Below are positions 21,871 to 60,623 of a DNA stretch of 61,764 bases, in pieces. The position numbers were made by a program, and so were the translations under genes. The notes below the pieces were generated by a model. The model did not search any database, was not told the DNA's origin, and saw nothing but the letters and a program-made list of their open reading frames with translations. Position 1 is the stretch's first letter. Every line of letters begins with the position of its first letter. The stretch is from a virus (taxonomy: Duplodnaviria > Caudoviricetes), in the IMG/VR virus record IMGVR_UViG_3300027162_000003, positions 1-61,764 of that record, one strand, 5' to 3'.

Positions 21871-23727
21871 TTATTCAGAAAAATCAACATATTCCATTTT
21901 CTCGATTCCTTGCAAGGCTTTTGTTCTTGTTGGTAACTCTGGCTTTGCGTCGGTCATAGTCGCAATTGCGCCTCCTCGTTGTCTCAAAAGAAACACAAGC
22001 AAGGAAAGCGAATCCAATGCGTCAGGAGAATGTTGCCGTGTTCGCTTGCAATAATCGCCTTTACTTTCCACTCGAACCAAGCCTTGGCCTTTCTGCTTGT
22101 AGCGTCTCGCAGTAGCTTGGCGCACCAACTCTTCGCTACGGAACCCCGGCGATATTTTCAAATACTCAAACTCCAAATACTTCGCTAGACCGAAAATCAA
22201 TTCGGTAACAACGCCAGAATAAAGTTGTGACGCTGGCAAGGAATCGTCGCCAAGAATGTGAGTATCCGTAGCCATAGTTGAGTAGTTGACTCCAAGCACA
22301 TCTCCCCACACGGACTTCAACGAATCATGGATGCCAGCACCATTACCTGTTCGGTCAACGCATACCCAGTTCGGAGCAATACGCATATTCTTACAGAATT
22401 TGATAATATTTGTGGACTGCTCCAATGTCGCGGCCTTCGGGAATGGAATCTGTGAGTCAAGTTGTAAGACAACCTTGGGCTTCTTATACTCAACAAATCT
22501 ACCACTCATTGGCGTATAGCCGTCAGAAAGCCCAAATCTGCCGTAAGAACAGATTACTTGGTCATTGCCCTCCAAAGCCAAGTCGAACGCACACAGAGGC
22601 ACTACAGGCCCAATAAAGCGGGTAATTCCCATGGCATTGTCCATCATGCTTGGCGTCATGATTGCCATGGACACGCCTTCCTGCGGGAACCAGCCCCTAG
22701 CCATGGTATAATATTCTGCCGTCTTACCCTTGGATTCGTAGGCTTGATAGCCTTCGTGAGTCTGAAGACCGGGGAATACGATCTTTTTCTCAATCACATT
22801 CTCGCACTTTGCGGCATCCAATCGCAAGATATGCCAACCATCTCGACTCTTCCATTCCAAGTCATCCTCGCAGTCAATAGAACCCCAGCCTGCTGTTGGC
22901 TCACAACGCTTGCCAAATTCGCTAGTCCTATCCTTCGGGTTGCTTGCCGCAAATATCTTGATTCGACCCTTCGCTCCTTCCGTATCCGCCGCAGACAGGA
23001 TGTTCTGCAATCCTTCCCAGACACCAGCAGGAACTTCTTCCGCTTCGTCCAGCACAACATGAGTCCTAGACATCCTGCCCCATTTCGGATGCGGCTTACC
23101 ACTTCTTGGGCTAGGGTGGAAACCACGGAGCGTTCCAGTTCCGCTATCACCTTTAGGAACAGCAACAAGATGAATCCCGTTCTTGCTATCGTTATTCGCT
23201 TGGATACTTTTTACAAGTGTCTCACTGCCTTCAAATTCTGGTCTAACCAATGCAGTTGTATAGAACTTCTTAATAGCTGCAAATACATTTCGCTGTGCGT
23301 GTTCGGCAGTCAATGACACAACTTTAATACAAGTATAGTGAGGATCACGCATCCAATCCAACAAAAACCAAGCCGCTGCACCGAATGTTTTTCCCATCGC
23401 GCCAGCACCTTGGATCAGCAATTTATCGTGATCGAACAAACATCTCCATGTGTTTTGACTGGACATTGGTCGCCAATCATAGACTTGTGGCCCCCAGAGA
23501 ATCGTTGCCGCTGCCTCAAACTGATCTGCATCCAGCAAGCTCTGGACATAGTTTTTCACTATTTCCTTCGCTTTTGGTATATCCAATTCGACCTTTCCCT
23601 TCACAGATGCCGCATTTAGAATGATATGCTTTGCCGCATATACAATTCCAACATCTTCATCCCTGTCAGCCTCTTCCCGAATCTCCTCGGCTAACTTAAT
23701 CGTCCTATTTACGCTTCCGCCAATCAT
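21871..23727 (-). CDS. terL: Terminase large subunit
   Basis: Walker A GAGAMGKT, Walker B VVLDEAEE, ASNP coupling motif, nuclease FDLALEGND and SPDALD. Confidence 0.9.
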   Translation of the reverse strand: MIGGSVNRTIKLAEEIREEADRDEDVGIVYAAKHIILNAASVKGKVELDIPKAKEIVKNYVQSLLDADQFEAAATILWGPQVYDWRPMSSQNTWRCLFDHDKLLIQGAGAMGKTFGAAAWFLLDWMRDPHYTCIKVVSLTAEHAQRNVFAAIKKFYTTALVRPEFEGSETLVKSIQANNDSKNGIHLVAVPKGDSGTGTLRGFHPSPRSGKPHPKWGRMSRTHVVLDEAEEVPAGVWEGLQNILSAADTEGAKGRIKIFAASNPKDRTSEFGKRCEPTAGWGSIDCEDDLEWKSRDGWHILRLDAAKCENVIEKKIVFPGLQTHEGYQAYESKGKTAEYYTMARGWFPQEGVSMAIMTPSMMDNAMGITRFIGPVVPLCAFDLALEGNDQVICSYGRFGLSDGYTPMSGRFVEYKKPKVVLQLDSQIPFPKAATLEQSTNIIKFCKNMRIAPNWVCVDRTGNGAGIHDSLKSVWGDVLGVNYSTMATDTHILGDDSLPASQLYSGVVTELIFGLAKYLEFEYLKISPGFRSEELVRQATARRYKQKGQGLVRVESKGDYCKRTRQHSPDALDSLSLLVFLLRQRGGAIATMTDAKPELPTRTKALQGIEKMEYVDFSE

Positions 23728-24571: not shown

Positions 24572-25678
24572 TCATGGATAATTCTTCATTCCTGCATACA
24601 ATCCATTGCCATCAGCATACCAGCCCCTATCCGTATAAACATTCATCACATCTTTGAAGTATTTCTCATACATCGGGGCAACTTTCTCAAGACTAAAATT
24701 CATTCCCCACTTCCTGCAATCCATAGGCTTAATGTCATCAATATTTTTGATCGCATCTACAAAGTCACCCATCGTCCGACACCGAAATCCTGTGATGCCA
24801 TGCAAATTATTCTCTGCAAAGCTACCCCAATCTGTCGTTATCGTTGGCGTTCCACATAGCAAATTCTCAACCTGAACACCACCGAATGGCTCGATATACT
24901 GGCTAGGAACGAAACTTGCCTTGGCGTTAGCCATCAATTTTTTTCTGGTTTCCACATCAGCATATCCAACATATTCCACATGGTCAGGTAACTTATAGCC
25001 TTCTTCTTTCTGCCCTGCGATTACCAACTTCACTCCTGCCTTCTCTGTGGCTTGGATCGCTACATCAACGCCCTTTCCACTGTAAACCCTTCCCAGATAC
25101 AGAAAATAATCTTCCTTCTTAGCGTTAAACTCGAAATCCTCCACATCGAAATAATTCGGGATGACAACATCATACCAGTCCTGTTTGCATGAACCCACTG
25201 CCGACATTCCATAATAGGCATGATAAATTGCGTAGGACTCAAACACCTTCCACCTTGCCCAATGTCCACCCGCATACCCAATCCCCGGCTCCACGCAAAT
25301 CATGTCTTGATGCGCGTCACAGATAGGACGAACGCCTGAACCCCAGAAGGGCAGAATAAAATCATGCTTCTGCTTTCTTTTCCCTACTTCCCTAATCGCG
25401 TTCTTGTAAAATGTCTGATAGGCGTGATCGTTCGTGTTAAACTTAAAGAATGTTTTTCTCCAATCATGCGAGCCGTAGCTTTTCGCAAAATCATCGTTAG
25501 TCAGAACTGGCACATTCTCCGAGCAAATCAAGTCGCTCTCTTCATGCCCATAGTGAATGACCTCATGTCCTCGTTCAACCATCATCTTGCCGAACTTCAC
25601 AACCTTTTGAGTATATGCACAGGCGTTGAACTCTTTTGATGTGACTGTGTGCGGGAGTCCTAAAATGTGAAATCTCAT
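24572..25678 (-). CDS. GT4-like (GT-B) glycosyltransferase
   Basis: YLGRVYSGKG and EPFGGVQVE (Ex7E) motifs. Confidence 0.85.
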   Translation of the reverse strand: MRFHILGLPHTVTSKEFNACAYTQKVVKFGKMMVERGHEVIHYGHEESDLICSENVPVLTNDDFAKSYGSHDWRKTFFKFNTNDHAYQTFYKNAIREVGKRKQKHDFILPFWGSGVRPICDAHQDMICVEPGIGYAGGHWARWKVFESYAIYHAYYGMSAVGSCKQDWYDVVIPNYFDVEDFEFNAKKEDYFLYLGRVYSGKGVDVAIQATEKAGVKLVIAGQKEEGYKLPDHVEYVGYADVETRKKLMANAKASFVPSQYIEPFGGVQVENLLCGTPTITTDWGSFAENNLHGITGFRCRTMGDFVDAIKNIDDIKPMDCRKWGMNFSLEKVAPMYEKYFKDVMNVYTDRGWYADGNGLYAGMKNYP

Positions 25679-39008: not shown

Positions 39009-39160
39009 TATGAATTGCCCAACCAGAATGGAAGAACAGCGCAGGATTAACGATCTATATGCATCCGGCCAAATGTCACGCGAAGAGTGGAGTAAACTAT
39101 ACGACGAACTATCTTCTCCAAGGTGGACAGCAGAAGGAAAGGTCAAAGAAGAAAAATAGA

Positions 39161-40171
39161 ATGAACTTTACCCATGAGATTCTGCAACAAATGGGATATA
39201 AGGCCAACGCAGACGGATCATATTCCAGAACTGAGACATTTTCTCCACGGCAATTTTGGAGCGAATTGGAAATTAAAACTTTAACTGATTATTATTTAAA
39301 CACTCCAGAGAATTTATTTAATATATCTGATTTATCAAAGAAGCTAAATAGAACCGAAGCATCAATACATTGCAAGGCAAATGATCTAAAGTTAACCATG
39401 CCAAGAGGAGTAAGAAAAAGATCGGATGATTGCAAAAAAGAAATGTCAGAAATAAGGAAAGGCATATATGTAGATCATCTTAAAAAAGCAAACGAAGATA
39501 GAAAAGGGAAGCCGGGAACGAATAAAGGCAAGAAAATTTGGTCTTCAGAACAAAAGCAAGATATATCAGATAGATCAAAAGAATATCTTAAAAAACATCC
39601 TCACCCAAAAGGATTTTTAGGCAAAAAACACACAGAAAAGTCAAGAAAAGCAATGTCAATTGCTGGAAAGGGAAGGGAGAAGTCGCCAGAATCCACACTT
39701 AAAATGATTCAAACAAAAGTTTTAAAATATGGAAGTTTAGCTCCTAATGTAAAAAGAGGATCATGGAAGGCACAATGGTATGAAGTTGGAAGCAAAAGAT
39801 TCTATGCAAGATCATCTTGGGAGATAAATCATGCAAACTGGCTTGAATCATTAAAGAAAAACAAATCAATAATTGATTGGGAACATGAACCTGAAACATT
39901 TTGGTTTACTGGAATTAAACGAGGCGCAATGTCTTATTTGCCAGATTTTAAGATAACACTTAATGATAATTCCGTTGAGTTTCATGAAATCAAAGGGTGG
40001 ATGGATTCAAGAAGCAGAACTAAAATAAAAAGATTTAGGAAGCAATTTAAAGATTATACTTTAAAGATTTTCGGGAAATCAAAAGACGAATTAATACAAT
40101 TCAAAATACCCGGATGTTACATGATAAATGAATACTACAAATTAAATGAATTAGAAATCAAGGAGTTGTAA
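39161..40171 (+). CDS. NUMOD3-type DNA-binding plus PD-(D/E)XK endonuclease (homing-endonuclease-like)
   Basis: GKKHTEKSRKAMS; RSSWE..A.WL; YLPDF..HEIKG; AT-rich; start MNFTHE. Confidence 0.75.
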   Translation: MNFTHEILQQMGYKANADGSYSRTETFSPRQFWSELEIKTLTDYYLNTPENLFNISDLSKKLNRTEASIHCKANDLKLTMPRGVRKRSDDCKKEMSEIRKGIYVDHLKKANEDRKGKPGTNKGKKIWSSEQKQDISDRSKEYLKKHPHPKGFLGKKHTEKSRKAMSIAGKGREKSPESTLKMIQTKVLKYGSLAPNVKRGSWKAQWYEVGSKRFYARSSWEINHANWLESLKKNKSIIDWEHEPETFWFTGIKRGAMSYLPDFKITLNDNSVEFHEIKGWMDSRSRTKIKRFRKQFKDYTLKIFGKSKDELIQFKIPGCYMINEYYKLNELEIKEL

Positions 40172-41174: not shown

Positions 41175-41369
41175 TTATATTCTGCCCCACCTAGATTTAT
41201 AGTAAAGTTCGTTAAGCCTAACTCGTTCTGCTGTCATTGTCCAGAATTTATCGCAAGCCATATTAACTAACCTGCAAGTCTCATAAAACCATGGATCATA
41301 TTCGTTGTTATCAACGCCAGATTTCCTATGGTCATGCGCCGAATCTCTTATATAAGTCTTTTTGTCCAT
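41175..41369 (-). CDS. Hypothetical protein
   Basis: Co-oriented, overlaps the upstream stop. Confidence 0.5.
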   Translation of the reverse strand: MDKKTYIRDSAHDHRKSGVDNNEYDPWFYETCRLVNMACDKFWTMTAERVRLNELYYKSRWGRI

Positions 41370-41950
41370 AAATTCTCTGCTTCAGAAAGCGACAATACTG
41401 GCCTTCCGTTTCGCATATTGACATCATTGTGAAGACCAATTCCCCATTTCCACAGGTCTGAAAAATCTGGAGGAAAATGCTTGCAATAGTCTTCAAAATG
41501 TTGTTGGCACGGACAACCATTCCACGGGATAGAATCAGCCCAGTTATTAAACCAACTCTCGATGAATGCGCGATCCTCGCAGTTCCTATTGCGAAGCGAA
41601 AACAAATGTAGTTCTGCCCAGTATCTAGGCCCATCGCGGAGTATCACAGATTGAATTAGCGCACGGCTGCGCTCCGATTCATCCAATGCTCGTTGAACCC
41701 AGTCGCAATGCTCATCCCAGTTCAGTCCGATATGCTCACAGACCATCTTCTCAACATCATCAGCAATCGAATAACCACTAATCGACTTTGAGCGGACGAA
41801 TGTTTCGACCAGTTTACCAAGTGCTACGAGGAACGAATGATCTTCCCTAGCACCATAATCAACCACAGGGATAATCAGATGATCACCGATAATCTCGGAA
41901 TCACTAAATGGCATTAGTGATGGATCAACTGACTTCGCCTCAAACTTCAT
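41348..41950 (-). CDS. Erv1/Alr-family FAD sulfhydryl oxidase domain fused to an unknown N-terminal domain
   Basis: GPRYWAELH ... IPWNGCPCQQHF ... PPD..DLWKW..LHNDVNMRNGRP..SLSEAENLW matches the Erv consensus G..W..LH / PC..C..HF / W...HN.VN..L.KP. Confidence 0.8.
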   Translation of the reverse strand: MKFEAKSVDPSLMPFSDSEIIGDHLIIPVVDYGAREDHSFLVALGKLVETFVRSKSISGYSIADDVEKMVCEHIGLNWDEHCDWVQRALDESERSRALIQSVILRDGPRYWAELHLFSLRNRNCEDRAFIESWFNNWADSIPWNGCPCQQHFEDYCKHFPPDFSDLWKWGIGLHNDVNMRNGRPVLSLSEAENLWTKRLI

Positions 41951-42071: not shown

Positions 42072-42233
42072 CTATTTATCCATCTTACGAGTCATAGCAG
42101 CCTTCTTAGCGCGAGCTTTGCGCTGAACACTATAGGCGATTGCTACGGCTTGCTTTACTGGCTTACCAGATTTAACTTCCGCAGAGACATTACGATCAAA
42201 ACAATTTTGTGAGGCACATTTACGGATTGGCAT
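42072..42233 (-). CDS. Small basic phage protein (53 aa)
   Basis: Manual translation MPIRKCASQNCFDRNVSAEVKSGKPVKQAVAIAYS..., KQAVAIA family. Confidence 0.7.
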   Translation of the reverse strand: MPIRKCASQNCFDRNVSAEVKSGKPVKQAVAIAYSVQRKARAKKAAMTRKMDK

Positions 42234-42275: not shown

Positions 42276-45269
42276 TTATTCTTCCTCAAAAGAAATTTCA
42301 GCTTCTGGAGTTTCGCCTTCTGGTTGCTCTGTTTTCAATCCAAAGTCAGACGCCTTTAGATTCTTAATTCCATAAGTAGCAAACATTCTTTGAATAGCAG
42401 GGAAGTTTTCTTCATTAACCTTCAGAAGCAATTTACGAGCAAGCTCTGGATCAGTCATTGAATCAATCATCATATTCTTGAACAGATCAATGACTTCCTT
42501 ATTATATTGACGCTGAACTTTCTTAACAAGGTCAGTAGATTTCCAAGCTACATAACCCTTAATGCCTGCAAGGCCAATTCCAGCAAGCTCAAGAACAGTG
42601 TCTTTTATGTCTTGTGCTTTGTCTTCTGGAGACTCAAATCCGGCAACCTTTAGCTTTGAACGACGAGACATCATGTCAAGTTGCTGACGAATAGTATCCA
42701 TTGCCTCAAGCTCTGGAGAATTTTTTCCAAAGACCATCTCAAGAGAATTTCTTGTTGCAGAACCTTTCTGCATCAAATCATTCATCTTTTTAAGATCAAC
42801 TTGGAAGTCAGCAATATTTGCCTCATGTGAAGCAATTCCCTTGCCTACGCTCTCTTTTGATGTTGTCCTTGCTTGGCTATTAAGCCATCCCCTAAATGCG
42901 TTTTTAAGACCTTCTGTAGCCTTTCCAGTGGTGTCTTGAGCGGCCTGTTCTAACAGGTTCTGAACCTGTTGCTCAGCGTTCACCTTGTTAGACATTACTT
43001 TATTAACAACCTCGTATGGATTTCCTCCAATAAACCTTGCGGCTGGATTAGAGTTTGGATTAGTCGCAAGTTTTATTTCGTCATCAAGTTTTCTGACTTG
43101 TTCTTGATATTGTTTTTCAATTTGTTTTGATAGAGCTTCAGCTTGCTTTTCAACAATAGAAGCTTTTTGTCCTTCTAAAATTCTTTGTTTCTTGAAATCA
43201 TTAACTGCTTTATTGGCATTAGAAACTTGATCCTCAAGGGTTGCAAATTTCTCTTGAATTTCAGATATTCTTTTTCTAGATTCAGGGAAAATCTCAAGGA
43301 TTCGATTTCCCTTGGTTTGCAGCCAATTTTCAATAGATTTAGATGTCTTAGCTCCCTTTACTTCACCAGACATCTTACTTAACACCCAGTCAGAAACATC
43401 TCGAATGGCCGTTGCTCTATCAGCTTCAGCGGCTACAAGTTGATCTGGAGTTAGATTAGGAATATCCTTTTTACCAATAATGGCATCGCGCAATCTTTGT
43501 ATTTCTTCAGGAGAAGCAGAGGCTTCGCTTCTTCCAATAAATTTATCTATAGTTTCAGAAGCAAGCGACTTCGGGCCAAAAGCATCTCTAGATGCTCCCT
43601 CCTTGTATCTTTGAGCATACTCATAATAAGCTCTATTTGCTTTTTTTAAGTTATCACTAACTCCTTCAAGCGATTCAATATCTTTATTAAGTGACTCTTT
43701 GAATTTAATCAATGCAGGAACTTCTGCCTGCCTAGCAGAGCTTGACTGAGCTGCGCGAATTTCAGAATTGATAGCACGAATATCTGCACGGAGCTGATTG
43801 AGCGTCCGCAATTTCATGTTTCCTTTTACATCTTGAACTTCGCCAAGAATTTTTTGAACTTCAGTTGGGATTCGTCGTTCCTCGCCAAATTCTTTTACCA
43901 ATCCAGCTTTAGCCTCTGCTGTATTTTTTTGATAGAATTTAGGAACTTCTTTTTCAGCAGCATCATAAAGATCATTGATATAAATTTTCTCACGATCCTT
44001 CTGACGCTTTATTACTTCAAATGCGCTTTTACTCAAATCATCTTTTGCGGTTGATTCTTTAAGCCTTGAAAGATCAGTAAAAAGATTTTCATATTCATCT
44101 TTTACCTTCTGAAAAGCATCTTCAGCATTCAAAACGCCCTTGTCTGCCTCGGCTCTGATTGCTGCTGCTTTTATCCCAGCATCTTCAATCAATTTAGCTG
44201 CCTCTGCGTCACCTTGAGATAATGCAGCCTGCTTATTCTTCTCTGATTCAGAAACGATATTATCAATTACTGATTTTAAATACTGCTGAGTTTCTTCAGG
44301 GGAAGCTCCAACTGGAGCAAGTCCTTCGCCTAGTTTACGAGACATTCCAGCGATGTTTTCGAGCTTCCTACTAGAAAGAACATTGGATTCACGCTCAAGC
44401 ATATCTTGCATAGCAAGAAGTCCCGGATCGCCAGTAATGTCACCAGTCATCATTTTAACCTGAGCATCACTTACCTCTTGCGAGCGAGCTAAATCATCAA
44501 GTGCTTGCTTCTTATCAAATACCATTCGTTGATATGCAGCCGCACCCAATTCTTCTGCTTGTGCAGCTTTTTGTGCGGCAGTCTTTGGAAGCAGTGTTAA
44601 TGCACCTCTACCAAGTCCAGCCGCCACAGGAACAGCAATGCCAGTGGCAAGCCCTCCGCCAAGTTGAGCCAATGGGCCTGCTCCCTCTTGTCCCATCTTT
44701 TCCATGACACCACCAGCGGCAGCACCAGCGGCAGCTTGCACGACAGGACGCTCTCCCATTAATTTAGTAAATTTACGAGTCGCTTCAGCGGAAATTCTTT
44801 CGCTAACAGGAAGGATTGTTTCGGGCTGAATTGCTTTACTAATTGTTCCAAGTGCTTTTGCACCACCGCCCATTTGAGATGTGCCAGCAGAAACAGCCTC
44901 AATAATCTTTTCTCCAGAAGATTCGGGTTCAGGAACTCCAATTTTATCCAAAAGGTGAGTTACGGCATCTTTAGTATTTGAATACTTTGTTCCAAAGTTT
45001 GAATTAACTAAATCAATAGTAAGGTCTGCAAGTTGACCTGCAACAACGCCACCAGCAGCACCAACAGCCATTCCGGGAGGGCCAAACGGAATCCCAAGCA
45101 ATGCTCCCGCTCCAGCTTGAGCAAGAGTTGGGGAAACGCCACGAACTACAGCCCCAGCGGCTCCCTTTGCCGTCATTGAAGGTTCTTCTTCAGGAGAAAC
45201 CTCGTCCTCTGGAATAAATTCATTGTTATTTTTTTTATCCTCTTCTTCTGGAATAAAATCAGGTTCCAT
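42276..45269 (-). CDS. Large internal virion (DNA ejection) protein
   Basis: 997 aa, helical, Gly/Ala-rich membrane-like segments, last gene of the ejection cluster. Confidence 0.65.
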   Translation of the reverse strand: MEPDFIPEEEDKKNNNEFIPEDEVSPEEEPSMTAKGAAGAVVRGVSPTLAQAGAGALLGIPFGPPGMAVGAAGGVVAGQLADLTIDLVNSNFGTKYSNTKDAVTHLLDKIGVPEPESSGEKIIEAVSAGTSQMGGGAKALGTISKAIQPETILPVSERISAEATRKFTKLMGERPVVQAAAGAAAGGVMEKMGQEGAGPLAQLGGGLATGIAVPVAAGLGRGALTLLPKTAAQKAAQAEELGAAAYQRMVFDKKQALDDLARSQEVSDAQVKMMTGDITGDPGLLAMQDMLERESNVLSSRKLENIAGMSRKLGEGLAPVGASPEETQQYLKSVIDNIVSESEKNKQAALSQGDAEAAKLIEDAGIKAAAIRAEADKGVLNAEDAFQKVKDEYENLFTDLSRLKESTAKDDLSKSAFEVIKRQKDREKIYINDLYDAAEKEVPKFYQKNTAEAKAGLVKEFGEERRIPTEVQKILGEVQDVKGNMKLRTLNQLRADIRAINSEIRAAQSSSARQAEVPALIKFKESLNKDIESLEGVSDNLKKANRAYYEYAQRYKEGASRDAFGPKSLASETIDKFIGRSEASASPEEIQRLRDAIIGKKDIPNLTPDQLVAAEADRATAIRDVSDWVLSKMSGEVKGAKTSKSIENWLQTKGNRILEIFPESRKRISEIQEKFATLEDQVSNANKAVNDFKKQRILEGQKASIVEKQAEALSKQIEKQYQEQVRKLDDEIKLATNPNSNPAARFIGGNPYEVVNKVMSNKVNAEQQVQNLLEQAAQDTTGKATEGLKNAFRGWLNSQARTTSKESVGKGIASHEANIADFQVDLKKMNDLMQKGSATRNSLEMVFGKNSPELEAMDTIRQQLDMMSRRSKLKVAGFESPEDKAQDIKDTVLELAGIGLAGIKGYVAWKSTDLVKKVQRQYNKEVIDLFKNMMIDSMTDPELARKLLLKVNEENFPAIQRMFATYGIKNLKASDFGLKTEQPEGETPEAEISFEEE

Positions 45270-45274
45270 ATAAT

Positions 45275-46966
45275 TTATTGTGTCAATGGGGCCAATGTAA
45301 ATCCTTCAGATAATTTTTTATCAACCTTTGATTTAGGAACTGTTCCAAAAACATCTTTCCCTTCTTTTTGATAAGGAGCTTTCATTCTTACCATTTCTTC
45401 AGAAGATTTTGTTTTTTTTGATTTTTTTTCCTCTTTAGGATATTCAATTGCAGGAGGAGTATATCCGGGATTATTAGCTTTTAATATTTCAACAGAATCA
45501 TTATAGATTTTAAGACGCTTTCGTTTAAGTTCTTCCAAAACTGGTAATATATCTTTTTTTTCTAATGAAGGATCAAGAGGGCCTTCAGTATTTGAAAACA
45601 TTTCATTTTCTTGATTAGAAACATTTCCAACAGCAGCACCTGTTGGAGATGCGCTTCTCATAGAATTTAAAGCATTAATAGTTACACCAGACTTGATTGT
45701 CTCAAACTTTTTTCTTACCTTATAAGCATCTGTATCAATTGGAATAGCCGCAACAGATGCGCTCAATCTTCCAACAGACCAAGGATTATTATTAATTGTT
45801 GAAATTATATCATCAATTTCTCTCAATGATGTAGCTGCTGTTTCAACATGGTCAGCAAGAACCTTGTTTTCGTCTTTTACTTTTTGCTGACGAATCTGCA
45901 TTTCTTGTTCAGCTTTTTTAGCTTCTCTCTCTTCTTTCTTTACTTCTCTTTCTTCTTTCTTTTTAGCTATATCTAATTTTTCTTCTTCTATTTTAGTTTT
46001 CTTTTCTTCACGACCACTCTCGACTACTTCTTTTTTAATAGCTTGTTCTTCAGCAAGTCTTTCTTTTCTAATACTTACTGGCGCAACAGTTTTAAATTCA
46101 TCCGATTTGCCCAAGTTAATAACTTGGTATTTATAATCTGGGTTTGTATTCTTTAATTGATTATTTAATTTGGATGCTAAATTTTGAGCTTCAGCATCAG
46201 TCTCAATATTCCCGTAGGTTGGAGGTTCTTCGTATTTAGTGTAATCAACTTCAGTAGAAATTTTCTCAAGAGGCTTTTCTTTGGTTGCAACAGCCTGTGC
46301 AGGGAATTTTGGTGCTGGCAAGTCTTCTAACACTGGAGCGGGTGCGGCAGTTGTTGAAACTGGGACAGCCTCCAATGCTGGTTTTTCTTGCGGAACTCTT
46401 GGAGAAGGCTTCCAACTAAATACTCCGGGTCTTTCTTCAGGAAAATCACCAGTTGGAGTTTCAAAATTAGCTTTCAGTTCTGGCTGTTGCTCTGGAAGCG
46501 GCTCTTCTACAGTTTCATAATCAGAAGGCTCCTTATCAACTTTAGTCTCTGGAACTCTGTCAGAAAATCCAGAATAAGCCTTCCTGAATCTAGCAAGATT
46601 AGCAGCAAATCCCGGCTTGCCACTATTTTCAGCGATCCACCTAGCCTCTTCTTTTGCGAAGAAGTCTGCGTTTTCAGATTTTTCCTTAACTCCATAGAGC
46701 ATAAGCTCGTGGGCAAACTTACGCTTCTCTTTCTCTTTCTCCTCTTCCTTCTCGTATTTAGCAGTAATCCCACCCAACGCACCTTTAGCGATACTAGAAA
46801 CAGCACTAGCGATGCCTTCAGCTACAAGCTCTGGTCGAGAAGACTGAATCTGGATAGCTTGAAGCGGCTGGAACTGCAATGCAGCACCGCGAGTCACATC
46901 GAGTGCTGGCAATGGTTGCAGACCACTAAGATTAGCGAATTGAGGAGAGAAGGAATAATCAGCCAT
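45275..46966 (-). CDS. Internal virion (ejection) protein
   Basis: Coiled-coil; ASPTGAAVGNVSNQE motif typical of ejection proteins. Confidence 0.65.
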   Translation of the reverse strand: MADYSFSPQFANLSGLQPLPALDVTRGAALQFQPLQAIQIQSSRPELVAEGIASAVSSIAKGALGGITAKYEKEEEKEKEKRKFAHELMLYGVKEKSENADFFAKEEARWIAENSGKPGFAANLARFRKAYSGFSDRVPETKVDKEPSDYETVEEPLPEQQPELKANFETPTGDFPEERPGVFSWKPSPRVPQEKPALEAVPVSTTAAPAPVLEDLPAPKFPAQAVATKEKPLEKISTEVDYTKYEEPPTYGNIETDAEAQNLASKLNNQLKNTNPDYKYQVINLGKSDEFKTVAPVSIRKERLAEEQAIKKEVVESGREEKKTKIEEEKLDIAKKKEEREVKKEEREAKKAEQEMQIRQQKVKDENKVLADHVETAATSLREIDDIISTINNNPWSVGRLSASVAAIPIDTDAYKVRKKFETIKSGVTINALNSMRSASPTGAAVGNVSNQENEMFSNTEGPLDPSLEKKDILPVLEELKRKRLKIYNDSVEILKANNPGYTPPAIEYPKEEKKSKKTKSSEEMVRMKAPYQKEGKDVFGTVPKSKVDKKLSEGFTLAPLTQ

Positions 46967-47957: not shown

Positions 47958-48254
47958 TTAAGTTTTAATGTTTAGTTTTTTTCTTGCTTCAAGGCACAAA
48001 TCGCCATTCGGCTTAAAATGCCTACAAGAATCAGGTCTGTCAAAGTAAATTGAGCATGATACGCAATTTCCCAAAATTCCTTTTAATGCCACACATCTGT
48101 TGTTTTCAGTTTTCATCAAAGGATAGTCTCCTCGTTGCATTTCTTTCGGTATCTTTTCTGCATCCGATCTGTCACGCTTAAAAAGCGGCCAAGACCATTT
48201 GTAAGAACAGCAAGCACCGCAAGAAATACAGTCTTCACTTGTTACTTCTTCCAT
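47958..48254 (-). CDS. YkgJ-like CxxCxxCC cysteine-cluster protein
   Basis: CISCGACC ... RCVAL ... CSIYFDRPDSCR. Confidence 0.85.
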   Translation of the reverse strand: MEEVTSEDCISCGACCSYKWSWPLFKRDRSDAEKIPKEMQRGDYPLMKTENNRCVALKGILGNCVSCSIYFDRPDSCRHFKPNGDLCLEARKKLNIKT

Positions 48255-49078
48255 TCAACAGGTCGGAATCCAAGATCATCAATAACTATGTCCTCGTATG
48301 GAGCCATTTCGCTTATATTCGTGATAGTAGCGTTTAGTTTTGGGCAATGCACATGGCGACCTAAATGGCGATTCACGCAATTAAAGCAAGTCGGGTAGAA
48401 GTCAGCATTTAGTGACTTATCTGGATTGTTATACCACTTATCATCTTTTTTAATATACCGAGTTGGATCAGGCTCAATTCCGTTTTCCTCTAAATACTCA
48501 AATATATCATCATCAGTCCAGTCGCGCATTGGATATAGTGATACTGGCGAACCATCAACAATGCGGATGTCTTGAGCCAACGGAACATGACCTTTGATTA
48601 GATCTGTATCCTCGTATTTAGTTCCGATAAATACTGCTCCCCAAGGCCAGTTAAATGTTCCAGTAGGACGCTGTAAGAAGTCCGTAACGCCACACAAGAA
48701 CTTTTCATCTGGCTTTGGAGTCTCTGTTCCAAGCGAAAGCACAACGCAATTCTTTCCCCATTGAAAATAATGGAGCATATCAAATCTAACCTCGCCAGTA
48801 TTCACATCAGGCCCATCTGCCAATGCCACCTTCATTGGAGGATACTCATATACCTCTAAGCCCCATTCTTTGATCAGTTGATCAGAGTAGGCATATCGCT
48901 CACGGAACTTTGGCTGACGATACTGGATAACAGGAATATCAATCTCTGCTCCGTATCGAATAAGATGAAGTAATGCAGTAGAGTCCTTTCCTCCACTCCA
49001 TAACACAACTGATCTAGGCCATCTTTTGTTCCACTCTTTTATTCTATTTATTGTTTTATTTATTAGGTGATGTCTCAT
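48242..49078 (-). CDS. PAPS-reductase-family PP-loop protein
   Basis: WSGGKDS PP-loop, G.K..D, YPMRDWTDDDIFEYL, CFNC. Confidence 0.85.
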   Translation of the reverse strand: MRHHLINKTINRIKEWNKRWPRSVVLWSGGKDSTALLHLIRYGAEIDIPVIQYRQPKFRERYAYSDQLIKEWGLEVYEYPPMKVALADGPDVNTGEVRFDMLHYFQWGKNCVVLSLGTETPKPDEKFLCGVTDFLQRPTGTFNWPWGAVFIGTKYEDTDLIKGHVPLAQDIRIVDGSPVSLYPMRDWTDDDIFEYLEENGIEPDPTRYIKKDDKWYNNPDKSLNADFYPTCFNCVNRHLGRHVHCPKLNATITNISEMAPYEDIVIDDLGFRPVEWKK

Positions 49079-58790: not shown

Positions 58791-60623
58791 TCATAAGTTA
58801 GAAAGTTTCCAATGAACATATGCAGCATTAAGTGAAAGCAGTTCTTCATACCTTACGCTATACATTTCTCCTGCTGGATTTTGTAAATTTCCTTCATCAT
58901 CAAACTCGTCTTCCCATTTATCATAGCATAGCAATCCGTATTCAAATGCATCCAATCCCTCAGATTCAAATGCTTCTTTTACTTCTTGCGCTATAACTCC
59001 ATAATGCCATCTTGCTTTTTCTTTTTTTGAATCAACAGCATGATTAAATTTATATTGCTTGAATTTAATTTTTCCAAAAGCCCTTAATGCAGATTCTGGA
59101 ATTTCTTGGATTTGTTGTTTGTAATTTGCATCAGATGTATTAATTGTTCCATTTACAGCAAAGACTTCAGTCCATCTTACTCCGCTAACTCCAAGGCTTG
59201 CTGTATTATTTGTAATTGGTCTTACTGCCCCAATTGATCTATGGTCTTCTGCAAATCTTTGAACTTGAGTAGTCCCTTGAAACAATGCAAAATATTTATT
59301 TGCTGGAGTTGGATCAGAACCATCAAATGATGCAACTAATCCATTTGCGCTAAATTTAAAACCCTCCTCTGTGTGTTCAGAAGAATTTTCCGATGCAGCA
59401 GATTTTGCAATAGTTGAATTAATTATGCTAGTTGTTTGTTCATCCCCAACATTTTTTATATCCCAGCTTTTGCAACCAGTTTGTAAATTTATAGCTGGAT
59501 TGAAGTCATCTGTTACATTTGTGCCAGAATGCCTTGGCGATGCGCCATTAATTAATGTATATGTTGAAATCGCATCTATATCAACACAATATTGATATGG
59601 CCTAATAAATCTATTGTTTATTAAAACATTATTTTTCCCTTTAACATATATGCCTTTTACCAATGCAGCCGTTCCGCCACTTGCTAATGTTCCTTGAGTT
59701 GTATTTGTCCCTCCCAACTGACCTTGTGGGCCACTAACAGCACAACCAACGATTGATATATTGTCAGCATATTGAAGTTGAATTACATGATTTGCATATG
59801 GACTTAATGTAGTATTTCCTCCGCAAAAGAAAAATTCGCAATTCAAAAGATATAGCCTATATGCAGCAAGATTTGCTCCTGATTCATTATTTGCATCCCC
59901 AGCAAATAAAGCGCAACAGTCAGTTCGTCCAGCACGGCAAGTATCAAATGTTATAATTCCACACTCCGCATATCCACTTGTTGAATTAATAGCACCATCA
60001 TCTACATAATAAGCGTGTCCCTTGCAATACTCTACTGTTACCTGCGTTAATTTTGTGCTTGGGCATTCTTTAGATAAATATACTCCAATTCCCGGCTCTT
60101 GGTAAACTTGGACTCGTTCAAGCAATGTTTGAACACAATTTCTAATATAGATTGCTCCTACAGTTCCATTAACGCTTCCAGAAGATGTCCAGCGAACAGT
60201 ATCTGAACCATAAATCTCTATATCGCGCATAACAAAACAACTTTTGTCATCGGCAGTAATTACCCATCCACCAGTAAAATCTGCAAGAAGTCTTGTTCCT
60301 ATATTTTCTGAAACTGACAACGACCTACCAAATCCATCTCCATAAATTGTTATTCCGTCATCTGGAATAGTTAGTCCAGATGTTAAGCGATAAACTCCAT
60401 CTGGAATATAAACTACACCTTTCCCTCCGCTTGCTGAATTAATTGCAGCTTGAATAAAAGAAGTAGAATCAAAAGTTGAGTAGCCAGACTCAGTAATCGA
60501 ATGCGCGCCAAAATCCCTTACATTTATTACATCAGCAAAGTGATCTTGCAATAGACGCGATGTATTTCCTCCAGTAGATGTAATTCCATCAATTACTCTT
60601 TGTGTTGCTTTTGTAATAGGCAT
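58791..60623 (-). CDS. Tail spike: pectate-lyase-like beta-helix with C-terminal intramolecular chaperone (peptidase S74)
   Basis: INVRDFGA..D.T..IQAAIN..VYIPDGVY; TSDANYK..HYGVIAQEV..YSVRYEEL. Confidence 0.9.
   Translation of the reverse strand: MPITKATQRVIDGITSTGGNTSRLLQDHFADVINVRDFGAHSITESGYSTFDSTSFIQAAINSASGGKGVVYIPDGVYRLTSGLTIPDDGITIYGDGFGRSLSVSENIGTRLLADFTGGWVITADDKSCFVMRDIEIYGSDTVRWTSSGSVNGTVGAIYIRNCVQTLLERVQVYQEPGIGVYLSKECPSTKLTQVTVEYCKGHAYYVDDGAINSTSGYAECGIITFDTCRAGRTDCCALFAGDANNESGANLAAYRLYLLNCEFFFCGGNTTLSPYANHVIQLQYADNISIVGCAVSGPQGQLGGTNTTQGTLASGGTAALVKGIYVKGKNNVLINNRFIRPYQYCVDIDAISTYTLINGASPRHSGTNVTDDFNPAINLQTGCKSWDIKNVGDEQTTSIINSTIAKSAASENSSEHTEEGFKFSANGLVASFDGSDPTPANKYFALFQGTTQVQRFAEDHRSIGAVRPITNNTASLGVSGVRWTEVFAVNGTINTSDANYKQQIQEIPESALRAFGKIKFKQYKFNHAVDSKKEKARWHYGVIAQEVKEAFESEGLDAFEYGLLCYDKWEDEFDDEGNLQNPAGEMYSVRYEELLSLNAAYVHWKLSNL

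What the first reader, a model, noticed from the sequence alone, without database searches (positions are those of the whole stretch)
41348..41950. Bacteriophage-encoded Erv1/Alr sulfhydryl oxidase with an unusual CxC site
Seen: residues about 107-195 carry the full Erv/ALR pattern (G..W..LH, P..C.C..HF, W...HN.VN...G.P, terminal W). Known: this FAD enzyme family is characteristic of eukaryotes and large eukaryotic DNA viruses (vaccinia E10R, ASFV pB119L), where it makes disulfides in virion proteins inside a reducing cytoplasm. Here the redox site reads NGCPC (C146-x-C148) rather than CxxC. It is fused to a ~100-aa N-terminal domain with its own Cys pair (CEH..HC), which could act as a shuttle. 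Inference: the phage brings its own cytoplasmic disulfide-forming enzyme, expressed at the end of the late arm.
Basis: partly seen in the sequence, partly recalled or inferred. Interest (0 to 1): 0.88.

Follow-up and report, generated by a model that had tools for sequence, protein, structure and literature searches.

The report
Phage Erv-fold thiol oxidase, CxC site
An uncultivated bacteriophage encodes a protein with the fold and flavin-binding residues of the eukaryotic and giant-virus Erv/ALR disulfide-forming enzymes, but with a Cys-x-Cys pair instead of Cys-x-x-Cys, and it belongs to a large phage family that seems not to have been described.

Summary
Window 41348..41950 (minus strand) is a 200-aa ORF. 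Residues ~101-200 are an Erv/ALR domain: Pfam Evr1_Alr E 2e-5, ASFV pB119L E 8e-8 (7e-10 with a profile), and an AlphaFold model whose top 23 listed PDB matches are all Erv/ALR enzymes. The redox site reads WNGCPC and is invariant in 15 of 15 aligned relatives. C148 aligns with the second Cys of the canonical CxxC.

First, CxC is not a one-off. Of 149 more distant metagenomic relatives, 114 have CxC and 32 have CxxC. At least 485 IMG/VR contigs encode relatives, several of them complete tailed-phage genomes. Second, the proposed N-terminal Cys pair is not conserved, so the shuttle idea lacks support.

New context: in 13 of 15 clusters of single-domain phage relatives, the gene directly upstream encodes a tail-module protein with 18-48 cysteines. 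The window's own two-domain clade lacks this partner.

I found no relative in 50,697 GenBank phage records apart from one giant-virus record, no PHROG family, and no paper describing one. [quoted passage not shown]

Best reading (0.6): an FAD-dependent thiol oxidase that matures phage proteins late in infection. It is a new variant of a known kind. Activity is untested.

The parts
41348..41950 (-). Whole ORF, 200 aa plus stop: a two-domain protein (N-terminal domain plus Erv-like domain).
   Evidence: ORF list. Full-length homologues at 56-98% identity in 12 syntenic viral loci. 39 homologues in metagenomes.
41651..41950 (-). N-terminal domain, residues 1-100: three beta-strands plus three helices. 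No known family and no conserved Cys pair.
   Evidence: Folded alone, it gives pLDDT 85.3 and pTM 0.76. No Pfam or PHROG hit. Structure matches are weak only: selecase Z 5.2, then other zincin-like proteins at Z 3.5-4.2; Foldseek gives nothing at E <= 0.001. No invariant Cys.
41351..41650 (-). Erv/ALR-fold domain, residues 101-200: five helices.
   Evidence: Pfam Evr1_Alr over residues 110-195. 3gwl at E 7.9e-8 and 7e-10. Helices H102-120, H127-140, H147-158, H166-180 and H188-199. Foldseek matches to Erv/ALR enzymes.
41507..41515 (-). C146-P147-C148, the putative FAD-proximal redox pair. C146 sits just before helix 3 and C148 on its first turn.
   Evidence: The DNA reads TGT CCG TGC on the minus strand. 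Invariant in 15 of 15. C148 aligns with the second Cys of pB119L and Erv1 CxxC, with a two-residue insertion before it. Helix 3 starts at residue 147.
41606..41620 (-). W111-A-E-L-H115 on helix 1, the Erv family W-x3-H signature.
   Evidence: Invariant in A1. W in 113 of 114 and H in 113 of 114 CxC relatives; W in 31 of 32 and H in 32 of 32 CxxC relatives. Their role as flavin contacts is recalled from Erv structures, not tested here.
41417..41431 (-). H174-N175-D-V177-N178 on helix 4, the Erv family HNxVN signature.
   Evidence: H and N are present in 114 of 114 CxC and 32 of 32 CxxC relatives. Aligned to the HNNVN of pB119L and the HNKVN of Erv1.
41483..41581 (-). C124 (loop between helices 1 and 2) and C156 (end of helix 3). 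A possible extra disulfide specific to this clade; this is inference only.
   Evidence: Both are invariant in the 15 close relatives. In distant relatives, C156 occurs in 6 of 114 and the C124 column is mostly a gap.
42072..42233 (-). Conserved upstream neighbour, 53 aa with 2 Cys, unknown function.
   Evidence: Present next to the Erv-like gene in 12 of 12 related loci. No Pfam family.
41175..41369 (-). Conserved downstream neighbour, 64 aa with 2 Cys. It overlaps the Erv ORF end by 22 nt. Unknown function.
   Evidence: Present in 12 of 12 related loci. No PHROG or Pfam family.
42276..46966 (-). Two large upstream proteins without any Cys (997 aa and 563 aa). These are probably internal or ejected virion proteins and give structural-arm context.
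   Evidence: The 563-aa protein matches phrog_2534, 'released from the phage upon host infection', at E 5.5e-10. Cys counts are 0 and 0. Syntenic in the 10 of 12 related loci whose upstream ORFs matched the window at all; nothing upstream of the 53-aa ORF matched in L005 and L008.
58791..60623 (-). Tailspike-like protein, 610 aa with 14 Cys. A candidate substrate by inference only.
   Evidence: PHROG tail fibre/spike families, best E 2.7e-56. Pfam Peptidase_S74 and pectate-lyase-like. Cys count.

Best explanation
The ORF encodes a cytoplasmic two-domain protein. Its C-terminal half is a divergent Erv/ALR-fold flavoprotein.

Proposed mechanism:
- FAD is held in the helical bundle by the conserved W-x3-H and H-N-x-V-N residues.
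- C148, on the first turn of helix 3, sits next to the flavin.
- C146, two residues earlier and at the helix cap, forms a strained CxC disulfide with C148.
- This disulfide oxidises substrate thiols. The electrons pass to FAD and then to O2.

The enzyme is made with the late structural genes. It would put disulfides into phage proteins, most likely Cys-containing tail or tailspike proteins, inside the reducing host cytoplasm. The N-terminal domain is a non-redox module, perhaps for substrate or virion targeting.

Shown here: homology, fold, residue conservation, gene position, and the family-wide link to cysteine-rich tail proteins.
Inferred: FAD binding, oxidase chemistry, the electron acceptor, and the substrates in this particular phage.
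For: Homology and fold:
- Pfam, PDB sequence and PDB profile matches.
- AlphaFold model plus Foldseek; ranks 1-23 as listed are all Erv/ALR.

Conservation:
- WNGCPC, W111, H115, H151, H174, N175, V177 and N178 are invariant in 15 of 15.
- W111, H115, H174 and N175 are kept in 113-114 of 114 CxC relatives and 31-32 of 32 CxxC relatives.
- CxC and CxxC forms interleave on a poorly resolved quick tree: 17 changes, at least 2 forced by well-supported branches. This fits the two spacings doing the same job.

Phage origin:
- The window is a viral record rated 98% complete, with terminase, tail fibres and a replication module.
- PF04777 scores over its cut-off in 5 of 5 other viral records of 25-65 kb. 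Four of these are at least 90% complete and one has terminal repeats. It is found in 0 of 14 control bacterial genomes.
- Neighbours include tape-measure proteins, terminase and integrase.

Functional context:
- In 13 of 15 single-domain clusters the ORF just upstream has 18-48 Cys (4.3-9.3%). Other neighbours have 0.1-1.8% and the tape-measure-sized ORFs have 0.
- The same pair occurs twice in a Pirellula MAG, in prophage-like loci.
- One relative is an Erv-glycosyltransferase fusion (L067), and another (L091) shows a weak sub-threshold GT8 match. This fits a role in protein maturation.
- The gene order is conserved in 12 of 12 close loci.

Chemical precedent, from papers:
- CxC disulfides are redox-active as Erv shuttle motifs (PMC3509050, passages).
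- Mia40 has an active-site CPC (PMC4019985, abstract in the listing).
Against: - No biochemical data exist. FAD binding and activity are inferred.
- The window protein alone scores 25.2 bits, under Pfam's 27.6 cut-off.
- The canonical FAD-proximal CxxC is absent. A CxC next to a flavin has, as far as I found, no characterised example.
- The window's own two-domain clade lacks the cysteine-rich upstream partner: 0-1.9% Cys in 6 of 6 clusters. Its four nearest upstream proteins have no Cys at all. The substrate here is therefore unknown, and the family-wide context transfers only by analogy.
- One relative (P0054) has lost both cysteines, so non-redox roles exist in the family.
- Transcription is not shown. 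The only RNA-library cover is an 11-kb contig that could be DNA.
- No promoter-like site lies directly upstream, and site counts in the region are no more than chance.
Confidence: 0.6

Rival explanations
1. It is an active Erv-type oxidase aimed at the host rather than at phage proteins. It could be carried in or made after the ejected internal proteins. It would oxidise host thiol systems (thioredoxin or glutaredoxin targets, defence proteins) or generate H2O2 to reprogramme the cell. The N-terminal domain would select the target or load the protein into the virion.
For: The gene follows two Cys-free proteins, one of which matches a PHROG annotated 'released from the phage upon host infection'. 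The two-domain clade has no cysteine-rich partner gene. A glycosyltransferase in the window is 75% identical to ones in Synechococcus phages, with 51 of 52 matching records being Synechococcus phages. This hints at a gene pool shared with cyanophages, whose hosts rely on thiol-based regulation (the latter point is general knowledge).
Against: Nothing shows that the protein is packaged. It has no match to virion protein families. Single-domain relatives are tightly linked to cysteine-rich tail genes, which points to phage substrates for the family. The host is unknown: terminase and portal have no match in GenBank phages.
Confidence: 0.17
2. The Erv fold is retained but the chemistry differs. 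The CxC pair with H151 could bind a metal. Alternatively, the protein could act as a disulfide isomerase or reductase, or as a flavoprotein that passes electrons to an acceptor other than O2.
For: CxC instead of CxxC. H151 is invariant in the close clade. Erv1 and ALR use cytochrome c as acceptor in cells (titles in the reference list of PMC8557897).
Against: H151 is His in only 62 of 114 CxC relatives, whereas the flavin-signature residues are near-invariant. CxC and CxxC forms interleave among close relatives. That is hard to reconcile with a change of chemistry.
Confidence: 0.13
3. It is a redox-dead structural or adaptor protein that merely keeps an Erv-like helical bundle.
For: One relative (P0054) lacks both cysteines. 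The Pfam score is below the cut-off.
Against: The Cys pair and the W/H/HN signature are invariant across 56-98% identical relatives, and near-invariant across relatives mostly 28-45% identical. That pattern indicates selection on a catalytic site.
Confidence: 0.07

Closest known systems
ASFV pB119L (PDB 3gwl), a compact viral Erv-family FAD-linked sulfhydryl oxidase
   Same: Best sequence match (E 7.9e-8; 7e-10 with a profile) and best structural match (TM by target 0.71-0.73, 28% identity). It has the same five-helix domain, the W-x3-H and HNxVN signatures, and viral origin.
   Different: pB119L has PCTRC (CxxC). The phage protein has PWNGCPC, a two-residue insertion with the first Cys moved to i-2. 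pB119L is single-domain and comes from a eukaryotic virus. The phage protein carries a 100-aa N-terminal domain.
Cellular Erv1/ALR and Erv2 sulfhydryl oxidases (Pfam PF04777)
   Same: Same fold (Foldseek TM by target 0.46-0.66) and the same conserved helix-1 and helix-4 residues.
   Different: They use an FAD-proximal CxxC plus a shuttle disulfide on a flexible tail (CxC, CxxC or Cx4C; PMC3509050 passages). Here CxC is at the FAD-proximal position and no conserved shuttle pair exists. Sequence similarity is weak (Erv1 E 0.003).
Baculovirus Ac92 (P33) and mimivirus R596: viral Erv enzymes with extra fused domains
   Same: An Erv module is fused to an additional folded domain. [quoted passage not shown] This parallels the N-domain here, which has no conserved Cys pair.
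   Different: No sequence or fold similarity between the extra domains was found. Those enzymes keep CxxC and belong to viruses of eukaryotes.
Mia40 CPC active site and the Erv2 CGC shuttle (redox-active CxC disulfides)
   Same: The same Cys-x-Cys spacing, here even Cys-Pro-Cys. These motifs are known to cycle between dithiol and disulfide (PMC4019985 abstract; PMC3509050).
   Different: These are not flavin-adjacent sites, and Mia40 has an unrelated fold. The resemblance is chemical, not homology.
Poxvirus E10R-A2.5L-G4L cytoplasmic disulfide pathway
   Same: The same concept: a virus brings its own oxidase to make virion disulfides in a reducing cytoplasm. It is cited as Senkevich et al. 2002 in PMC13576161 (Discussion passage).
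   Different: E10R is filed under a different Pfam family (PF04805, per PMC10598087) and works with two virus-encoded thioredoxin-like partners. I did not look for such partners in the window beyond the family scans, which named none.

Membership tests
Erv/ALR sulfhydryl oxidase family (Pfam PF04777 Evr1_Alr) | Significant sequence-profile similarity to the family | tested here: met
   E 2.1e-5, although the 25.2 bits fall 2.4 bits under Pfam's curated cut-off of 27.6. 35 of 39 close homologues carry PF04777. pB119L at E 7.9e-8 and 7e-10, Erv1 at E 0.003. 10 of 10 sampled distant relatives pass the cut-off.
Erv/ALR sulfhydryl oxidase family (Pfam PF04777 Evr1_Alr) | Helical-bundle Erv fold (four-helix bundle plus a fifth short helix) | tested here: met
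   AlphaFold model with five helices and block-mean pLDDT 82-94 over residues 111-190. Foldseek ranks 1-23 as listed are all Erv/ALR enzymes, probability 1.00.
Erv/ALR sulfhydryl oxidase family (Pfam PF04777 Evr1_Alr) | Conserved flavin-pocket residues (W-x3-H on helix 1, H-N-x-V-N on helix 4) | tested here: met
   W111, H115, H174, N175, V177 and N178 are present and invariant in 15 of 15, and are aligned to the same residues of pB119L and Erv1. That these residues contact FAD is recalled from published Erv structures.
Erv/ALR sulfhydryl oxidase family (Pfam PF04777 Evr1_Alr) | FAD-proximal Cys-x-x-Cys at the start of helix 3 | tested here: not met
   The site reads C146-P-C148. Only the second Cys aligns with the canonical motif. 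I therefore file it as a variant of the family, not as a canonical member.
Erv/ALR sulfhydryl oxidase family (Pfam PF04777 Evr1_Alr) | Bound FAD and O2- or cytochrome-c-linked thiol oxidase activity | not testable with these tools
   Needs purified protein.
Erv/ALR sulfhydryl oxidase family (Pfam PF04777 Evr1_Alr) | Shuttle disulfide outside the core (cellular members; optional in viral ones) | tested here: not met
   No Cys is invariant in the N-domain. C71 is present in 10 of 15 and C82 in 6 of 15 close relatives. There is no C-terminal tail after helix 5.
Zincin-like (minigluzincin / M78 / SprT-like) metallopeptidase fold, for the N-terminal domain | Fold similarity plus an HExxH metal site | tested here: inconclusive
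   The best match is selecase at Z 5.2 (rmsd 3.6, 81 aligned). Jannalysin, abylysin, PprI, YbeY, CapP and BlaR1 score Z 3.7-4.2, and all are below the tool's stated reliability level. The window has GKLVE where longer relatives have HE[LM]VE, and none has HExxH.

The most novel reading that the evidence does not exclude
Tailed bacteriophages carry a large, so far undescribed clade of Erv-fold flavoenzymes that use a flavin-proximal Cys-x-Cys disulfide. This would be the first dedicated, virus-encoded cytoplasmic disulfide-forming machinery found in phages. In many lineages it is paired with a tail-tip protein carrying 18-48 cysteines, its likely client. In the window's lineage it has instead gained an N-terminal targeting domain and a different client.
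Probability: 0.5. Interest if true: 0.88.

Novelty: new variant of a known kind. Interest (0 to 1): 0.78.

Why it matters
**Gap in current knowledge.** Disulfide formation in a reducing cytoplasm is known for poxviruses, other large DNA viruses of eukaryotes and baculoviruses, all of which encode Erv-type oxidases. [quoted passage not shown]

**What this finding adds.**
- If the phage proteins are active, many environmental phages bring their own oxidase.
- The pairing with cysteine-rich tail proteins gives ready-made enzyme-substrate pairs to test.
- The Erv active site would be shown to tolerate a CxC spacing next to the flavin. That matters for the enzymology of the family and for engineering cytoplasmic disulfide formation.
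- It reopens the question of where the Erv genes of eukaryotes and giant viruses came from.

Tried and rejected
**Homodimer with FAD.** Complex prediction on residues 100-200, two copies plus two FAD, returned 'no answer' (score 0.14 against a mark of 0.42). I do not use it as evidence either way.

**Transcription.** The look-up of sequencing runs found the stretch in riverine, estuary, aquaculture and wastewater DNA runs. Six of the best holders may be the source sample. In read laying, one metatranscriptomic run holds a relative (140 differing letters and 8 gaps over the 2101 bases laid) on a single 11,349-nt contig at depth 63. The tool warns that this may be DNA. The second RNA run gave only short fragments. 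Expression is therefore not shown.

**Host.**
- No tRNA genes.
- Terminase and portal have no match in GenBank phages.
- DnaB matches only at 26-28% identity.
- No relative was found in 185,579 species genomes with the close-family patterns.
- The only host hint is the cyanophage-like glycosyltransferase.

**Promoter and terminator scan.** Counts are no more than chance.

**N-terminal domain.**
- ESM Atlas by features gave no usable hit. By structure it gave only sub-threshold rows.
- Foldseek gave nothing at E <= 0.001.
- The shuttle-disulfide idea is rejected on conservation.

**C124-C156 disulfide.** I could not measure it, because model coordinates are not exposed.

**Tree.** The careful search did not finish. 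Only the quick, poorly resolved tree was used (82 of 147 inner branches unresolved). I draw no conclusion from it on origin or direction of transfer. No eukaryotic or NCLDV sequences were in the tree.

**Rows dropped.**
- 4 of 80 IMG/VR loci (L017, L041, L068, L089) gave no ORF with my HNxVN pattern and were left out and later counts.
- L030 (the window's own clade) was left out of the 98-protein neighbour scan.
- Three of the 149 distant hits have no Cys pair. Two of them (P0050, P0171), like close-family P0039, look truncated or frameshifted.

**Literature.** Eight valid searches found no paper describing a phage-encoded Erv-family oxidase or a flavin-proximal CxC. One search was badly designed (min_terms 2) and is uninformative. 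The library lacks most subscription journals, and supplements were closed, so an earlier mention cannot be excluded.

Full report
**1. The observation**

The window is a complete or nearly complete uncultivated virus record: 61,764 bp, with a CheckV estimate of 98%. On the minus strand, 41348..41950 is a 200-aa ORF with an ATG start. Its cysteines are at 71, 82, 124, 146, 148 and 156.

Several independent searches place residues ~101-200 in the Erv/ALR family:
- Pfam Evr1_Alr matches residues 110-195 at E 2.1e-5 and 25.2 bits, just under the curated cut-off of 27.6.
- Against PDB sequences the only clear hit is the African swine fever virus sulfhydryl oxidase pB119L (3gwl) at E 7.9e-8.
- A profile of 15 relatives raises that to E 7e-10 and adds yeast Erv1 at E 0.003.
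- An AlphaFold model built on those relatives gives five helices, with block-mean pLDDT of 82-94 over residues 111-190.
- Foldseek ranks 1-23, as listed, are all Erv/ALR enzymes: pB119L, Erv1, Erv2, ALR and Arabidopsis Erv1, with TM by target 0.46-0.73.

**2. The redox site**

In both HMMER alignments the canonical P-C-x-x-C of pB119L and Erv1 aligns to P142-W-N-G-C146-P-C148. The second Cys and the following xxH[F/A] line up. The first canonical Cys falls on W143, and two residues are inserted. The model starts helix 3 at residue 147. C146 is therefore at the helix cap and C148 on the first turn.

The nonapeptide SIPWNGCPC is invariant in 15 of 15 relatives spanning 63-95% identity. So are W111, H115, H151, H174, N175, V177 and N178.

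**3. A large family, not an oddity**

- A full HMMER pass over 1.84 billion cluster representatives gave 672 hits at E <= 0.001.
- Of the 149 listed hits outside the close family, 114 have CxC at this position, 32 have CxxC and 3 have neither. Two of those three look truncated or frameshifted. One, P0054, truly lacks both Cys.
- W111, H115, H174 and N175 are kept in 113-114 of 114 CxC members and 31-32 of 32 CxxC members.
- Ten of ten sampled members pass Pfam's cut-off. None of the ten matches a PHROG family.
- On a quick and poorly resolved tree the two spacings interleave: 17 changes, at least 2 forced by well-supported branches. The window's two-domain clade is a 15-row group with support 93, all CxC.

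I read this as two interchangeable solutions for one catalytic site. I draw no conclusion about origins.

**4. These are phages**

It confirmed 485 contigs.
- Among the best 80, I could ORFs: 75 are CxC and 1 is CxxC.
- PF04777 scores over its cut-off in 5 of 5 further viral records of 25-65 kb. Four are at least 90% complete and one has direct terminal repeats. It is absent from 14 of 14 control bacterial genomes.
- Neighbouring genes include tape-measure proteins, large terminases, integrases and Sak4-like and exonuclease genes.
- A few contigs are from giant viruses (L043-L045).
- Two prophage-like loci in a MAG titled Pirellula sp. also carry the gene, one of them next to an integrase-like ORF.

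By contrast, tblastn with five different family members against 50,697 GenBank phage records found only one record. That record is a giant virus labelled 'Mollyvirus Mo1-1'. This would explain why the family has escaped notice.

**5. Context in the window**

- The minus strand carries the large terminase (21871-23727), tail fibres and spikes, and large virion proteins.
- A plus-strand replication module runs from about 29.8 to 40.2 kb.
- The Erv-like gene lies at the downstream end of the minus-strand arm. It follows a 563-aa protein matching a PHROG 'released from the phage upon host infection', then a 997-aa protein and a 53-aa ORF. Small ORFs of 64, 89, 83 and 58 aa come after it.
- The core of this order (53-aa ORF, Erv-like gene, 64-aa ORF) is conserved in 12 of 12 related contigs; the two large upstream proteins are seen in 10 of 12 (L005 and L008 showed no matching ORF there), and the small downstream ORFs wherever the contig reaches them.

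So 'end of the late arm' is reasonable as a position. Timing of expression is not shown.

**6. The strongest functional clue comes from the relatives**

I clustered the 76 IMG/VR proteins at about 60% identity into 21 groups.

- In 13 of the 15 single-domain or C-terminally extended groups, the ORF directly upstream has 18-48 cysteines (4.3-9.3%). Other neighbouring ORFs have 0.1-1.8%, and the tape-measure-sized ORFs in the same loci have none.
- The two exceptions are a giant-virus contig (L043) and the only CxxC member (L088, 3.9%).
- These cysteine-rich proteins sit where tail-tip or receptor-binding proteins are usually encoded, two to four genes after the tape measure. They match no PHROG family, and nine of ten match no Pfam family; the tenth (L040) carries a DUF11 domain.
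- The Pirellula loci repeat the pattern: 209 aa with 12 Cys, and 426 aa with 25 Cys.
- One relative (L067) is a fusion of the Erv-like domain to a glycosyltransferase domain. Another (L091) shows only a weak, sub-threshold GT8 match.

An oxidase encoded next to an extremely cysteine-rich virion protein is what a dedicated disulfide-forming enzyme and its client would look like.

**7. Where the window's clade differs**

- All six two-domain groups, which are the window's kin, lack the cysteine-rich neighbour. Their upstream ORFs have 0-1.9% Cys.
- In the window the four upstream proteins have no Cys.
- Candidate clients elsewhere in the genome are the tailspike-like protein (610 aa, 14 Cys, with pectate-lyase-like and S74 chaperone domains), a 710-aa protein (13 Cys) and a 217-aa fibre protein (6 Cys).
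- These are ordinary cysteine contents, so the client here is open.

The clade instead has the extra N-terminal domain. Folded alone, that domain is confident (pLDDT 85.3): a three-stranded sheet plus three helices. Its best structural neighbours are small zincin-type metallopeptidases: selecase at Z 5.2, then jannalysin, abylysin, PprI, YbeY, CapP and BlaR1 at Z 3.7-4.2. All are below the level the tool calls reliable. Longer relatives carry HE[LM]VE followed by Cys and a 28-residue insert. The window has GKLVE followed by Arg, and no insert.

No cysteine is invariant across the N-domain. C71 is present in 10 of 15 and C82 in 6 of 15 close relatives. A non-redox targeting role is the more economical guess. 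[quoted passage not shown]

C124 and C156 are invariant only in the close clade. By helix topology they could lie at the same end of the bundle. That is inference, and I could not measure it.

**8. Mechanism**

The most likely reading (0.6) is an FAD-dependent thiol oxidase.
1. The flavin is held by the conserved helix-1 and helix-4 residues.
2. C148 lies next to the flavin.
3. C146-C148 form a strained, oxidising disulfide that takes electrons from client thiols.
4. O2 is the probable acceptor.

CxC disulfides are established redox motifs. They serve as shuttle motifs in cellular Erv enzymes (PMC3509050) and as the CPC of Mia40 (PMC4019985 abstract). None is known at the flavin-proximal position. 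The identification of the W/H/HN residues as flavin contacts is recalled from published Erv structures, not tested here.

The rivals are a host-directed oxidase (0.17), altered chemistry such as metal binding or another electron acceptor (0.13), and a redox-dead scaffold (0.07).

**9. Comparison and novelty**

By homology and fold this is an Erv/ALR-domain protein. By the family's defining CxxC it is not a canonical member, so I file it as a new variant of a known kind.

I found no description in print. Eight valid full-text searches returned nothing on phage Erv oxidases. [quoted passage not shown] A 2023 pangenomic study reports that all viral sequences in its Erv/Alr tree form a single clade stemming from a eukaryotic branch. 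In the passages I read, that clade holds NCLDV families, nudiviruses and baculoviruses, and no phages are mentioned (PMC10598087, passages). The library is incomplete and supplements were closed, so this is absence of evidence within those limits.

**10. Verdict**

The Erv fold, the CxC site, the phage origin and the position in the late arm all stand. The N-terminal shuttle does not.
- The 'unusual' CxC turns out to be the hallmark of a large phage family.
- The enzyme activity and the client in this phage remain to be shown.
- Interest is high (0.78). The finding is unexpected for both the disulfide and the phage fields, and it yields directly testable enzyme-client pairs.

Noticed in passing
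L062:3511-4899, L028:3466-4923, L065:3349-4899, L037:3823-4884, L024:4120-4983 and others; L094:5294-5923; L095:107-1387: Orphan tail-module proteins with 12-48 cysteines (4.3-9.3%) sit directly upstream of single-domain Erv-like genes. This holds in 13 of 15 phage clusters and in two prophage-like loci of a Pirellula MAG. They match no PHROG family; of the ten scanned against Pfam, only L040:2243-4405 has a hit (DUF11).
   Followed up: partly
L067:4896-6209; L091:2365-3747: The Erv-like domain is fused to a glycosyltransferase domain: GT group 1/GT4 in L067, and a weak GT8 match in L091. In L074 and L040 a calcineurin-like metallophosphoesterase follows the Erv-like gene.
   Followed up: no
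window 24572-25678 (-): A group-1 glycosyltransferase is 72-75% identical to genes of Synechococcus phages (S-CAM7, ACG-2014f). 51 of 52 matching GenBank records are Synechococcus phages. This is the only host hint for the window. Terminase and portal have no GenBank phage match.
   Followed up: partly
window 47958-48254 (-) and 48242-49078 (-): A 98-aa protein with 9 Cys (Pfam PF03692 CxxCxxCC, a putative Zn/Fe-chelating domain) overlaps the end of a PAPS-reductase-like gene, in the middle of the structural arm.
   Followed up: no
window 39059-40171 (+): A 370-aa ORF matches Holliday-junction-resolvase/endonuclease and D5-like regulator PHROGs. In most of the related contigs that reach this position it is matched over only ~30 aa (64 aa in L006). 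It looks like a variable, possibly mobile, insert at the end of the replication module.
   Followed up: no
window 41651-41950 (-) versus L012:6001-6393, L052:2690-3088 and kin: Longer relatives of the N-terminal domain carry HE[LM]VE..C plus a 28-residue acidic, proline-rich insert ending in QH. The window's version has lost the His-Glu, the Cys and the insert. Weak structural similarity to minigluzincins suggests a degenerate zincin-like module.
   Followed up: partly
P0054 (226 aa, metagenomic relative): A two-domain relative in which both redox cysteines are replaced and HNxVN is degraded to HNRWN. It is probably a redox-dead offshoot.
   Followed up: no
P0039 (121 aa): The C-terminus of this database 'protein' is unrelated, low-complexity sequence that I recognise (from memory, not from a tool) as translated sequencing adapter. 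It is a truncated contig, not a stand-alone N-domain.
   Followed up: no
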